A stretch of DNA of 64,000 bases from the NCBI GenBank assembly GCA_016839585.1, contig JAEOTZ010000014.1:1-64000 (forward strand), given 5' to 3'. The translations under genes were made by a program, and so were the position numbers. The stretch comes from Promethearchaeota archaeon (GTDB taxonomy: Archaea > Asgardarchaeota > Lokiarchaeia > Sigyniarchaeales > SOKP01). Of this stretch, positions 27,291 to 59,903 are shown one piece after another. Numbering within the stretch: the first letter of the stretch is position 1; the number at the start of each line of letters is the position of its first letter. The notes below the pieces were generated by a model, which ran no database searches, had not been told where the DNA came from, and saw only the letters and a program-made list of their open reading frames with translations.

Positions 27291-27704
27291 ATGACAACAA
27301 CAAATCCAACAGGATATTGTCCTCATTGCCAGCAGAATGTATTATTAACTCGAGAAGATATTGATGTTTGTTTAGCTATAATTTTACTAATTTTTACAGC
27401 TGGAATAGGCTTAATTATTTACCTTGCGATTTATTATAGTAGGGCAGAAGATAAATGTGTACATTGTGGGACACGTATAACTGCCCTACAACCACAACCA
27501 GTTGGTCAAATTCCATATCAACAAAAAGTTCAACAAAATCCATATACGTATCAAACTCAACCTACTCAAGAATATACAACTACTAGTGATGTTGAGGAAT
27601 TTAAAGGAGAGAGACCATTATTTTGTGTATATTGTGGAGAAAAATTAGCCGTTGAAGGGATAAAATTCTGCCCTAATTGTGGAAATAAAGTAGAAGAGAA
27701 TTAA
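27291..27704 (+). CDS. LITAF-like zinc-ribbon membrane protein (copy 2)
   Basis: CPHC - AIILLIFTAGIGLIIYLAIYY - CVHC; Q/P/Y-rich linker; CVYC...CPNC. Confidence 0.7.
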   Translation: MTTTNPTGYCPHCQQNVLLTREDIDVCLAIILLIFTAGIGLIIYLAIYYSRAEDKCVHCGTRITALQPQPVGQIPYQQKVQQNPYTYQTQPTQEYTTTSDVEEFKGERPLFCVYCGEKLAVEGIKFCPNCGNKVEEN

Positions 27705-48527: not shown

Positions 48528-48631
48528 TGGCGCAGACAGAGGGATTTGAACCCTCGAGTGCAAAGCACACTGGCTTTATGGTATAACAATCCTCTCCAAG
48601 CCAGCGCCGTACCAGGCTTGGCTATGTCTGC
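48528..48631 (-). tRNA. tRNA-Ser(GGA), 18-nt intron at 37/38 (48576..48593), CCA encoded
   Basis: GCAGACA/TGTCTGC acceptor, G73, CTGGC/GCCAG anticodon stem, long variable arm, GAGGG-TTCAAAT-CCCTC; BHB-like junction. Confidence 0.92.
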
Positions 48632-56854: not shown

Positions 56855-57015
56855 GATATTTCACTTTTTTAGTCTTTTTAAATGATTTAATTTTTTTCTT
56901 ATTATTACTTCAATTATTAATATAACAGATTACTACAATAAAAAAATTTTTATGTTTTTATTAGTTCAATTATTAATATTAAATGCATTAAAAAAAGAAA
57001 GTCAAGAAGAATTCA

Positions 57016-57171
57016 TGGACTCGGGGGGATTTGAACCCCCGATTTCCTGTGTCTTCTACAAAAAGTAGAAAAAATTCAGGCTTTTACTTGAACGGACATT
57101 TCTTAGAATTTCTTGTTTGTCCGTCGGTCATTTATAAGACCTGCGCTTTAACCAAACTAAGCAACGAGTCC
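57016..57171 (-). tRNA. tRNA-Ile(UAU) with two introns: 50 nt in the anticodon loop (about 57082..57131) and 31 nt in the variable loop at 45/46 (57044..57074)
   Basis: GGACTCG/CGAGTCC acceptor plus A73, GCTT/AAGC D stem, CAGGT/GCCTG stem, loop CT-TAT-AA (anticodon 57134..57136), GGGGG-TTCAAAT-CCCCC; removing both introns leaves a canonical 75-nt cloverleaf. Confidence 0.85.
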
Positions 57172-57250
57172 GTATATACTCGAAAATTATAATGTATTAA
57201 AAAATAAAAACTTAACTTATTCATAGAACTATAGTATATTAATTAATTTG

Positions 57251-57407
57251 GGCTTATTATTTTTTGAAATTGTGTTAGGGAATTTTACTTTAGGATTTCC
57301 TATTATATCTAACTGCTCAAGATTTTTCAATTTACAAATACCTAATTTTTCAATTTACAGATTTCCGAAAAGCAGGGAAATCCGGGGTTCAAATCCCCGA
57401 TGGGTCA
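57251..57407 (+). pseudogene. Degenerate tRNA-like element, anticodon not assignable
   Basis: Perfect T arm CGGGG-TTCAAAT-CCCCG (57383..57399); weak GGCTTAT/ATGGGTC acceptor; CTGCT/AGCAG stem; no recognisable D loop or anticodon loop. Confidence 0.5.
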
Positions 57408-57547
57408 TATTTTTTTATTGTTTGATATTTGTTAATTTAATCATTATACTTCGTGAAACATCAATTTCACGCTTTTTCATATATATCTAAGAAGCAGTTA
57501 GATATATCACTAGATAATATAAAAAAAGTTCTTAGTTAAGATCAATT

Positions 57548-58360: not shown

Positions 58361-59725
58361 TTATTGTTTTATTTGATTGTAAGCTTTTACAAATCTCTCA
58401 ACAGCTAATTCGATATCTCTCGTAGTTGCACCAATGGCAGCATTCATAACAATATAAGGAGTTGTATAATTTTCACAACATGTTCCAAACGCTGTTTCTT
58501 TTGTATTGTAGACTCTTGGACCAGTTACCCGCAAATTGTATAAAGCACCTCCAAGGTTATATAGTTGTTCTTCTTCTAAGTTTTTTAAAGATAATGCTAC
58601 TGCTATTGGATTATAAATATCAAGAATTCTTTCATTAATTTTTTCTGCTACTACTTTTAGTTTTTTTTCTAATATTTTACGATTCTGCTGTTGTTCTTCA
58701 ATTAATTCTTGATATCCATTGATTCCTAATGAAAGAATTGAAATTAAAAAGTTAACAACTGGAGTGGCTGATGCACGTCCAGCATAAGCTTGACTAATTT
58801 TAATTATAATTTCTTTGCTAGGTGATGCTATTATTGCACCTCCAACTGGTGTTAGAAAGTTTTTGTCAGTTGATTGAATTATCGCATCTACTCTACCAGC
58901 ATCTATAGCAGCTCTAATTAGTTTCATCCATTCAGGACTTTGAGCCCCATATGCATTTATAATAATATGTACTAGGTTATTTTCTTGCGCAAATTTACTA
59001 ATTTCTTTGATATCATCAGATTCTCTAGGAGGAAAAAAACTGGTAGTTGAAACAATAGCAAAGCAATCATTATCTAGATTAGATTTAATATCTTCAACAG
59101 GTATTCTCACAGCATCTCTAAAAATTTTTCCTTTAACGATTTTTGCCCAAAAACCCATTAATTCAATTGATTTTAATAATGATTTATGATCAATTTGTGG
59201 CAGCAACACCTTTCTCTTATGAAGTAGTTTAGAATCATCCCAATCTGGTCTTAATGCTCCTAAACATAAAGATAAAGACATTCCAGTACATAAAGGCACT
59301 ACAATTGCTTCTTTTATATTTGGCAATCCAATATTTTTCAATAAATTTCGCGCTAAATAATTGGTAATTTCATACATTATTGATCCTCCAGGTGCTTTAG
59401 GTTGTGGAGCTGTTAAAAATCCACTTCTACCTACACCATGACAAAATCCAGCCGAAGTTTTCAAATGAAGTTTTGACGCAATTCTAGCCTCTCTTTCACC
59501 TACCCTAGCAGCGTTATCATCCTTGTCTGTATCCATGTTTGAAAGTGTTTCAAGTAAGAATTCTATTTGTTCATCCCTCCACGGTTCTTTTGGAACACTT
59601 TTCTGTTCAAATAAGTTCTTTATTGGTTTTAAGAAATTATTTAATACAACCTGTCCTCGATTCAGCATATTTTGAGGAATAGATGAACTTTTAAAATATT
59701 TAATAATCTCGTGAAAATTTACCAT
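58361..59725 (-). CDS. spcS: O-phosphoseryl-tRNA(Sec) selenium transferase (SepSecS); start corrected to ATG at 59725
   Basis: GEREAR, HGVGRSG...QPKA.G.S, TGM, DHKS, NAYG, RVD..IQSTDKNF..PVGG, Y.GRAS; the ORF-track extension overlaps tRNA-Sec. Confidence 0.95.
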   Translation of the reverse strand: MVNFHEIIKYFKSSSIPQNMLNRGQVVLNNFLKPIKNLFEQKSVPKEPWRDEQIEFLLETLSNMDTDKDDNAARVGEREARIASKLHLKTSAGFCHGVGRSGFLTAPQPKAPGGSIMYEITNYLARNLLKNIGLPNIKEAIVVPLCTGMSLSLCLGALRPDWDDSKLLHKRKVLLPQIDHKSLLKSIELMGFWAKIVKGKIFRDAVRIPVEDIKSNLDNDCFAIVSTTSFFPPRESDDIKEISKFAQENNLVHIIINAYGAQSPEWMKLIRAAIDAGRVDAIIQSTDKNFLTPVGGAIIASPSKEIIIKISQAYAGRASATPVVNFLISILSLGINGYQELIEEQQQNRKILEKKLKVVAEKINERILDIYNPIAVALSLKNLEEEQLYNLGGALYNLRVTGPRVYNTKETAFGTCCENYTTPYIVMNAAIGATTRDIELAVERFVKAYNQIKQ

Positions 59726-59751
59726 AAAATTCACATCAAAAATTTTAAAAA

Positions 59752-59903
59752 TGGCGGCCCCCAGGGGGATATTCTTAAAAAGAGTAAATCTCTTTTTATA
59801 TCGAACCCCTATCCCTCCGCAGGATAACTGGGTTTGAAGCCCAGCGTCAAAGACCACTTATCGTCGAGGATCGGAATGACCACCAATTCGACCGCTAGGG
59901 GCC
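59752..59903 (-). tRNA. selC: tRNA-Sec(UCA), 9/4 fold, with two introns (29 nt in the D stem 59858..59886; 30 nt in the T loop 59770..59799), CCA encoded
   Basis: 9-bp acceptor GGCCCCTAG/CTGGGGGCC, G73, 4-bp T stem, 6-bp anticodon stem with loop CT-TCA-AA (59835..59837), long variable arm; spliced D arm GTCGAAG-TGGT-CTTTGAC; 93-nt product. Confidence 0.92.

What the first reader, a model, noticed from the sequence alone, without database searches (positions are those of the whole stretch)
57016..57171. tRNA-Ile with UAU anticodon, eukaryote-style AUA decoding, carrying two introns
Seen: contiguous loop CU-UAU-AA on an Ile-type body (A73). The anticodon-loop intron pairs UUAU/GUAA with AA|A and AA|G bulges, which fits 38/39 rather than 37/38 (the mature product is the same either way). 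The variable-loop intron has a clean CCUG/CAGG helix. Established: most archaea read AUA with agmatidine-modified tRNA-Ile(CAU) made by TiaS; UAU tRNAs are rare in archaea (Nanoarchaeum, Korarchaeum) but normal in eukaryotes, where the intron directs anticodon pseudouridylation. Inference: this lineage may have added or switched to the eukaryote-like route.
Basis: partly seen in the sequence, partly recalled or inferred. Interest (0 to 1): 0.75.

Follow-up and report, generated by a model that had tools for sequence, protein, structure and literature searches.

The report
Two-intron Asgard tRNA-Ile(UAU), no TiaS
This is a real isoleucine tRNA gene, hidden from standard finders by two introns, that reads the very common AUA codon directly with a UAU anticodon in a Loki-type Asgard archaeon whose whole class lacks TiaS, the enzyme most archaea need for AUA; a few other archaea are already known to do this.

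Summary
On the minus strand, 57171-57016 encodes a 156-nt pre-tRNA (Rfam tRNA, 45.4 bits). Removing a 50-nt anticodon-loop intron and a 31-nt variable-loop intron leaves a perfect 75-nt cloverleaf with loop CUUAUAA and A73. The gene is conserved with an invariant UAU in 118/128 genomes of its family and 8/14 of the sister family. It always carries the anticodon-loop intron, while other introns come and go. TiaS was found in none of 151 genomes sampled from the class, but in 156/301 from the phylum. In this genome I found only two CAU tRNAs, the initiator and the elongator Met. AUA is the ninth most used codon and behaves as Ile. The lineage has therefore switched to the "tRNA-Ile3(UAU)" route known from Nanoarchaeum and Korarchaeum. 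"Eukaryote-like" holds only for the anticodon and its adjacent intron; the modification state is unknown. One feature is unexplained: an ACA sits 17-20 nt 3' of U34 in the intron in 12 of 13 sampled genera of the family. The same scan has already reported this trait in other Asgard genomes. I found no paper describing it for Asgard archaea.

The parts
57016..57171 (-). Whole tRNA-Ile(UAU) gene (156-nt pre-tRNA, no encoded CCA)
   Evidence: Rfam RF00005 45.4 bits; ARAGORN with introns allowed; sequence
57132..57171 (-). Exon 1: acceptor 5' strand, D-arm, anticodon stem 5' strand and loop CUUAUAA (positions 1-38)
   Evidence: cloverleaf from ARAGORN on the spliced sequence
57134..57136 (-). Anticodon U34 (57136), A35 (57135), U36 (57134)
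   Evidence: CTTATA is invariant in orthologues
57082..57131 (-). Intron 1 (50 nt) at the 3' side of the anticodon loop; 38/39 register, and a 37/38 register gives the same product
   Evidence: H helix UUAU/GUAA is 100% paired in 68 sequences; the intron is present in 74/74 distinct orthologues
57091..57125 (-). Hairpin inside intron 1 (GACGGACA ... UGUCCGUU, 8 bp)
   Evidence: 6 of 8 pairs show compensatory changes; 0/500 shuffles reach the observed covariation
57114..57116 (-). Conserved ACA at the start of the intron hairpin loop, 20 nt 3' of U34
   Evidence: A and A invariant and C at least 90% conserved in alignment A1; ACA at +17 to +20 in 12 of 13 sampled genera of the family and at +18 in 3 of 6 of the sister family. 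Function not shown.
57075..57081 (-). Exon 2, a 7-nt micro-exon GCCUGAA (positions 39-45)
57044..57074 (-). Intron 2 (31 nt) in the variable loop, 45/46. Its central helix CCUG(40-43)/CAGG uses the 3' strand of the anticodon stem
   Evidence: the same position is occupied in part of the orthologues, some with a clean BHB (L015)
57016..57043 (-). Exon 3: AUC of the variable loop, T-arm GGGGG/UUCAAAU/CCCCC, acceptor 3' strand, A73
57195..57202 (-). TATA-box-like TTTTAATA centred about 27 nt upstream of G1 (inferred archaeal promoter)
   Evidence: read; inference only
56990..57000 (-). T-rich run TTTCTTTTTTT 16 nt after A73 (inferred terminator)
   Evidence: read; inference only

Best explanation
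This is the functional gene for tRNA-Ile(UAU) ('tRNA-Ile3'), the decoder of the AUA codon in this Loki-type (Promethearchaeia) Asgard archaeon. The 156-nt precursor is probably cut by the two-subunit tRNA-splicing endonuclease at two bulge-helix-bulge-like motifs: one next to the anticodon and one in the variable loop at 45/46. The three exons (40 + 7 + 28 nt) are then ligated into a 75-nt tRNA, and CCA is added. The class has no TiaS, so a CAU tRNA cannot be converted into an Ile/AUA reader. The encoded U34 pairs with the A of AUA instead. The central helix of the 45/46 intron uses the 3' strand of the anticodon stem, so the two splicing motifs cannot form together and the introns are probably removed one after the other. 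Shown here: the gene, its cloverleaf, its conservation, covariation in the intron hairpin, absence of TiaS, and heavy AUA use as Ile. Inferred: splicing itself, charging by IleRS, its role as the sole AUA reader, and any U34 modification that keeps it off AUG.
For: The gene and its structure are supported by Rfam at 45.4 bits, and the spliced product is a perfect cloverleaf called Ile(tat) with A73, C4-G69 and U12-A23. Orthologues occur in all 24 same-genus genomes sampled. The diagnostic 15-mer AGCGCNGGTCTTATA occurs in 118/128 genomes of the family and 8/14 of the sister family, and only two chance hits were found elsewhere in 379 genomes of the phylum. Every locus inspected is a tRNA-Ile(UAU) with an anticodon-loop intron. 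The intron hairpin has 6 of 8 pairs with compensatory changes. The sister family has a canonical hBHBh' at 37/38, with H = CUUA/UGAG and a 12-bp outer helix (L115). TiaS was not found in the genome with E up to 1, by profile or by whole protein, nor in 121 genomes of the order or 151 of the class; controls and 156/301 of the phylum were positive. Two tRNA_int_endo paralogues are present. The only CAU tRNAs found are the initiator (C16:372-503) and the elongator Met (C87:56209-56342). AUA makes up 36.2 per 1000 codons, 34% of Ile codons, and ranks ninth. At the 12 AUA codons of SepSecS, relatives have I/V/L in 99% of cells and M in 0.4%.
Against: My tRNA inventory is incomplete: about 40 genes were found, and tRNA-Ile(GAU), Asn and several others were not. 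Failure to find a third CAU tRNA is therefore weak evidence on its own. Intron 1 in this genus does not form a strict hBHBh'. Nothing here shows how AUG misreading by U34 is avoided.
Confidence: 0.85

Rival explanations
1. The UAU tRNA is an additional AUA reader, not the only one. An undetected, heavily interrupted tRNA-Ile2(CAU) exists and is modified by an enzyme unrelated to TiaS.
For: About ten expected tRNAs, including Ile(GAU), escaped every scan, so hidden genes clearly exist in this genome.
Against: No TiaS domain or protein was found in 151 genomes of the class. The known TiaS-less archaea have exactly this UAU substitution (PMC8450103). The two CAU genes found have initiator and elongator Met features.
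Confidence: 0.07
2. The gene is a pseudogene, a mobile-element or viral tRNA, or an assembly artefact with no role in host translation.
For: A decayed tRNA-like copy lies 79 nt away on the other strand, which shows turnover at this locus.
Against: The cloverleaf is perfect, and the gene is single-copy and syntenic in more than 120 genomes. The intron shows compensatory changes. The gene has its own TATA-like box and T-run. No other AUA reader is apparent, although AUA accounts for 3.6% of codons.
Confidence: 0.02
3. The intron is needed for anticodon modification. The conserved intronic ACA, 17-20 nt 3' of U34 at the far end of the intron helix, anchors a pseudouridine synthase, for example the PUA domain of Cbf5 acting without a guide as it does on U55/ACCA. 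U34 (and perhaps U36) would then become pseudouridine before splicing, which parallels intron-dependent Pus1 action on eukaryotic tRNA-Ile(UAU).
For: The ACA is invariant in an otherwise free hairpin loop. It keeps its distance from U34 (+17 to +20) in 12 of 13 genera of the family and 3 of 6 of the sister family, although the intervening sequence differs. The anticodon intron is the only one of up to four introns present in 74/74 orthologues. The U55-to-A73 distance in any tRNA is also 18 nt (established tRNA numbering). The intronic GACC can pair with G29-C32 in 98.5% of cells, and 21 of 25 changes are wobble-compatible.
Against: There is no experimental support. ACA is absent at that place in three genera of the sister family. 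The GGUC/GACC pairing is not present in the sister family. No Rfam H/ACA or C/D family matches the intron. ACA at similar offsets occurs by chance in other introns of this genome (hand check). The pattern could reflect slow divergence of a homologous intron.
Confidence: 0.15

Closest known systems
tRNA-Ile3(UAU) of Nanoarchaeum equitans and Candidatus Korarchaeum cryptofilum (PMC8450103, PMC6000648, PMC3575796)
   Same: These are archaea without tiaS that carry a genomically encoded TAT-anticodon tRNA-Ile in place of tRNA-Ile2(CAU). The Korarchaeum gene also has an intron (PMC6000648).
   Different: Here the trait covers a whole species-rich Asgard class rather than single genomes. The gene carries one to four introns, and its anticodon intron holds a conserved hairpin plus ACA.
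Eukaryotic cytosolic tRNA-Ile(UAU), whose anticodon becomes pseudoU-A-pseudoU (PMC3575796, PMC6000648). The intron dependence of Pus1 is from my own knowledge of the yeast literature.
   Same: A UAU anticodon reads AUA, and an intron always sits next to the anticodon.
   Different: No modification is shown here. The intron is not demonstrably homologous to the eukaryotic one. About half of the sampled Asgard genomes keep TiaS, so shared ancestry with the eukaryotic system is not established.
Mycoplasma mobile tRNA-Ile2(UAU) (PMC3575796)
   Same: The C34-modifying enzyme was lost and replaced by a UAU tRNA.
   Different: It is bacterial and intron-less, and its U34 is unmodified, with IleRS and the ribosome adapted instead. 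Whether that applies here is unknown.
[quoted passage not shown]
   Same: Several BHB-type introns lie at non-canonical places (D-arm, variable loop, T-loop) and are missed by standard finders.
   Different: That preprint does not mention Ile, UAU or TiaS. Its focal families are Freyr-, Jordi- and Atabeyarchaeaceae.

Membership tests
tRNA (Rfam RF00005) | Covariance-model score above the gathering threshold (29 bits) | tested here: met
   45.4 bits across model positions 1-71
tRNA (Rfam RF00005) | Cloverleaf with a 7-bp acceptor stem, D, anticodon and T arms, a 7-nt anticodon loop with U33 and a purine at 37, and T-loop UUCAAAU | tested here: met
   The spliced 75-mer is drawn by ARAGORN without a mismatch (one U-G pair)
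tRNA-Ile3(UAU) / TiaS-independent AUA decoding | Genomically encoded TAT anticodon on an Ile-type body | tested here: met
   TAT at 57134-57136; A73, C4-G69 and U12-A23 are present. The identity elements come from the bacterial literature, so they are only supportive.
tRNA-Ile3(UAU) / TiaS-independent AUA decoding | No tiaS in the genome | tested here: met
   (genome 99% complete); none found in 151 genomes of the class; positive controls
tRNA-Ile3(UAU) / TiaS-independent AUA decoding | No tRNA-Ile2(CAU) gene | tested here: inconclusive
   Only initiator and elongator Met were found with CAU, but about ten expected tRNAs remain undetected.
tRNA-Ile3(UAU) / TiaS-independent AUA decoding | Charged with isoleucine and reads AUA on the ribosome | not testable with these tools
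   Indirect only: AUA columns in SepSecS behave as Ile.
Archaeal bulge-helix-bulge (hBHBh') intron | Two 3-nt bulges separated by a 4-bp helix and flanked by helices, with cleavage after the second bulge base | tested here: inconclusive
   Intron 1 has the 4-bp helix UUAU/GUAA with AA|A and AA|G, but both 'bulges' sit in internal loops (hand check). The orthologous intron in the sister family is strictly canonical. Intron 2 has CCUG/CAGG with a 10-position outer helix containing one mismatch.
Archaeal bulge-helix-bulge (hBHBh') intron | A splicing endonuclease able to cut relaxed motifs is present | tested here: met
   Two separate tRNA_int_endo paralogues with open frames of about 208 aa, consistent with a heterotetrameric enzyme. 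Its specificity was not assayed.
Eukaryote-type pseudoU-A-pseudoU tRNA-Ile system | Intron-dependent pseudouridylation of U34 and U36 | not testable with these tools
   Only an ever-present intron (74/74) and a conserved ACA are seen.
H/ACA or C/D guide RNA embedded in the intron | Match to a known guide-RNA family, or a pocket/K-turn architecture with box ACA 3' of a lower stem | tested here: not met
   No Rfam guide family matches the intron with E up to 10. The ACA lies in the apical loop, the stem has no internal pocket, and there is no RUGAUGA C box.

The most novel reading that the evidence does not exclude
The anticodon-loop intron is retained because it programmes the wobble base. Its conserved ACA sits 17-20 nt 3' of U34, across one helix, in the same strand geometry as U55 and the 3' ACCA of a tRNA. 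It would dock a pseudouridine synthase (Cbf5-type) on the precursor, so that U34 is converted before splicing and the tRNA reads AUA but not AUG. That would be an archaeal counterpart of the intron-dependent eukaryotic pathway, in the closest archaeal relatives of eukaryotes.
Probability: 0.15. Interest if true: 0.85.

Novelty: new member of a known kind. Interest (0 to 1): 0.55.

Why it matters
AUA/AUG discrimination is one of the few places where the three domains of life use different chemistry: lysidine, agmatidine, or inosine/pseudouridine. These data show that a whole class of Asgard archaea, including its cultured family, has dropped the archaeal agmatidine route. It relies instead on an encoded UAU anticodon that always comes with an adjacent intron, the arrangement seen in eukaryotes, in genomes where AUA makes up 3.6% of codons. 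This makes a concrete question testable in the available Loki-type cultures: what, if anything, is done to U34, and does the intron direct it? There is also a practical point. Standard tRNA finders miss this gene and many others in these genomes, so automated annotations will wrongly report AUA as having no decoder.

Tried and rejected
1. ARAGORN in default mode finds no tRNA in the window. With introns allowed it finds 29 in the genome but misnames several, for example calling 'Met' at C11 what is Asp GUC.
2. The Rfam tRNA model finds only 24-33 tRNAs in the whole genome.
3. Four custom scanners raised the count to about 40 but never found Ile(GAU), Asn and others. They anchored on the T-arm plus acceptor, on T-loop introns, on the 5' module, and on anticodon-arm patterns. 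A GC-island scan was too noisy.
4. A canonical 37/38 or 36/37 BHB for intron 1 was rejected, because no 4-bp central helix forms in those registers (hand check).
5. The 15-mer hits in G140 (family f8) and G226 (f12) are chance matches, not tRNAs. The hit in G317 is a bacterial-looking tRNA cluster in a 9%-contaminated bin.
6. BLAST with the sister-family gene against the other families of the class gave only A-rich noise. An Rfam scan of one such genome (G327) showed no TAT tRNA among 35 genes, but that scan was incomplete. The presence of the UAU tRNA in families f4-f7, and in the TiaS-less families outside the class (f8, f17, f18, f21, f25), is therefore not determined here.
7. A C/D-box or H/ACA guide in the intron was rejected as a family assignment (no C box).
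9. The SepSecS homologue search returned only close relatives. The AUA-as-Ile check therefore rests on substitution patterns, not on distant homologues.

Full report
**1. The observation.** The feature lies on the minus strand. Rfam's tRNA model matches 57171..57016 end to end at 45.4 bits, with a 51-nt insertion after the anticodon loop and a long insertion in the variable region. Default ARAGORN finds nothing in the window. With introns allowed it reports tRNA-Ile(tat) at exactly these coordinates.

The strand reads GGACUCG UU GCUU AGUUUGGUUA AAGC G CAGGU CUUAUAA [50 nt] GCCUG AA [31 nt] AUC GGGGG UUCAAAU CCCCC CGAGUCC A. I spliced the sequence in a script. The parts are exon 1 (57132-57171), intron 1 (57082-57131), a 7-nt micro-exon (57075-57081), intron 2 (57044-57074) and exon 3 (57016-57043). 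The 75-nt product is drawn by ARAGORN as a mismatch-free cloverleaf, tRNA-Ile(tat), with A73, C4-G69 and U12-A23. U34 is window base 57136. A TATA-like TTTTAATA sits about 27 nt upstream of G1, and a T-run follows A73 (both are inferences).

**2. The splice motifs.** For intron 1 I checked the three registers that give the same mature loop. It is not a strict hBHBh'. U31 and C32 face the 3' bulge, and the outer helix is only UGA/UCA plus an 8-bp hairpin.

In 68 distinct orthologous sequences (alignment A1), that central helix is paired in every cell. The hairpin has compensatory changes in 6 of 8 pairs, and 0 of 500 shuffles reach the observed covariation. The orthologous intron of the sister family is strictly canonical at 37/38, with H = CUUA/UGAG, bulges UA|U and UC|A, and a 12-bp outer helix. 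The genus form is therefore a shifted derivative of an ordinary archaeal tRNA intron.

Intron 2 sits at 45/46. Its central helix is C40-G43 with CAGG, so it borrows the 3' strand of the anticodon stem. The two motifs are mutually exclusive, which argues for stepwise splicing (inference). The genome encodes two separate tRNA_int_endo paralogues, which fits the heterotetrameric, broad-specificity type of enzyme.

**3. Conservation.** All 24 same-genus genomes sampled have the gene. A scan of public genomes for GCGCAGGTCTTATAAATG returned 88 loci, most labelled Promethearchaeota or Promethearchaeia MAGs; the minority with bacterial labels did not parse as this tRNA arm. This names the lineage as Loki-type Asgard.

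The 15-mer AGCGCNGGTCTTATA occurs in 118/128 genomes of the family and 8/14 of the sister family. Elsewhere in 379 genomes of the phylum there were two hits, and both proved to be chance matches. Every locus I read is a tRNA-Ile(UAU) with an intron beside the anticodon. This includes a 4.4-Mb single-contig genome of the sister family.

Among 74 distinct orthologues of the family, the anticodon-loop intron is present in all. D-arm introns (0-2), the variable-loop intron (0/1) and the T-loop intron (0/1) vary, for one to four introns per gene.

**4. Is it the AUA reader?**
- TiaS: TiaS_FLD (PF08489) finds nothing in this 99%-complete genome even at E up to 1, while all four archaeal control genomes score above the cut-off. 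A complete 442-aa TiaS from another Asgard genome (domains confirmed) also finds nothing.
- TiaS in relatives: none was found in 121 genomes of the order or 151 of the class. It is present in 156 of 301 sampled genomes of the phylum, distributed family by family.
- CAU tRNAs: my scans recovered about 40 tRNA genes. Only two carry CAU. One is an initiator (A1-U72, GGG/CCC in the anticodon stem; C16:372-503). The other is an elongator Met (C87:56209-56342).
- Limit of the inventory: it is incomplete, since Ile(GAU), Asn and others stayed hidden. The missing third CAU gene is therefore weak evidence, and the TiaS result carries the argument.
- Codon use: AUA is heavily used, at 36.2 per 1000 codons, 34% of Ile codons, ninth overall. 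At the 12 AUA codons of the neighbouring SepSecS gene, relatives show I/V/L in 99% of cells and M in 0.4%. This is the same profile as at AUU codons and unlike that at AUG codons.

**5. Comparison with what is known.** Replacement of tRNA-Ile2(CAU) plus TiaS by tRNA-Ile3(UAU) is established for Nanoarchaeum equitans and Korarchaeum cryptofilum (PMC8450103; PMC6000648, two of 167 archaeal genomes). It also occurs in TilS-less bacteria such as Mycoplasma mobile, where U34 is unmodified (PMC3575796). Eukaryotes use pseudoU-A-pseudoU (PMC3575796).

Heavy interruption of Asgard tRNA genes has been described (bioRxiv 10.64898/2026.10.13.758758), but that text never mentions Ile, UAU or TiaS. My literature searches found no report of the trait in Asgard archaea.

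Earlier reports of this same scan noted the same arrangement in Odin-, Hel- and Loki-type genomes. It is therefore not new to the scan. I file it as a new member of a known kind.

**6. An unexplained feature.** The apical loop of the intron hairpin is free to vary, except for an ACA. Both A's are invariant and the C is at least 90% conserved in A1. The ACA keeps a fixed distance from U34: +20 here, +17 to +20 in 12 of 13 sampled genera of the family, and +18 in three of six genera of the sister family. The intervening sequence and the splice register differ between these groups.

U34 and the ACA lie at opposite ends of the intron helix on one strand. This is the same relation as U55 and the 3' ACCA of a tRNA, which are 18 nt apart; that substrate is known to be modified by Cbf5 without a guide RNA (my own knowledge).

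In this genus the intron's GACC can also pair with G29-C32. That pairing would present U33-U34 at the start of an 8-nt loop. It holds in 98.5% of cells, and 21 of 25 changes are wobble-compatible.

Two earlier scan reports proposed a 'hairpin plus ACA' signal for wobble pseudouridylation. My data support the conservation but not the mechanism. No Rfam guide family matches the intron, the ACA is missing in some genera, and no modification data exist. I give this reading about 15%.

**7. Verdict.** The lineage has switched away from agmatidine to an encoded UAU anticodon. Calling this 'eukaryote-style' goes beyond the evidence until the state of U34 is measured and TiaS/UAU are mapped on a named Asgard tree.

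Noticed in passing
window 57251-57407 (+), and hairpin 57452-57471 (+): A decayed tRNA-like element lies head-to-head with the gene. Its 3' end, CAGGGAAATCCGGGGTTCAAATCCCCGATGGGTCA, resembles the 3' exon of the GGGCCAT-type tRNA-Ile(UAU) found in most relatives. It is followed by the same conserved terminator-like hairpin (TTCGTGAAACA...TTTCACG plus a T-run) that follows their genes. It scores only 17 bits against Rfam tRNA, and no matching 5' acceptor strand was found. It looks like the remnant of the ancestral copy, replaced by an inverted GGACTCG-type copy that is shared with a few close relatives.
   Followed up: partly
window 59755-59903 (-) and 58361-59857 (-): A tRNA-Sec(UCA) candidate has loop CUUCAAA, a long variable arm, G73, a T-loop intron of about 31 nt and an oversized D region. 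It sits directly upstream of a SepSecS gene (Pfam E 8e-116). The first ~100 codons of the long ORF overlap the tRNA and are probably not translated.
   Followed up: partly
window 48531-48631 (-): tRNA-Ser(GGA) with an intron of about 18 nt in the anticodon loop (Rfam 47.7 bits).
   Followed up: partly
G000 contigs C5:40691-40856, C16:372-503, C27:42013-42132, C59:53701-53805, C84:14977-15100 and 27398-27530: T-loop introns of about 30-35 nt after position 58 are common in this genome (Trp, initiator Met, Leu-GAG, Arg-CCU, Arg-GCG, Pro). They hide these genes from Rfam and ARAGORN. About ten expected tRNAs, including Ile-GAU and Asn, were not found by any scan.
   Followed up: partly
L183 (G317:C26:19889-22909): A TiaS-positive Asgard bin (9% contamination) holds a cluster of intron-less 77-nt tRNAs (Asn, Ile-UAU, Thr). 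At least the Ile gene has an encoded CCA. The cluster looks bacterial or phage-like and is probably contamination.
   Followed up: no
L027-L106: Several MAGs labelled Hod-, Hermod-, Thor- or Odinarchaeota by one submitter carry the exact Loki-type tRNA-Ile(UAU) exon-intron junction. Some of these phylum labels therefore look unreliable.
   Followed up: no
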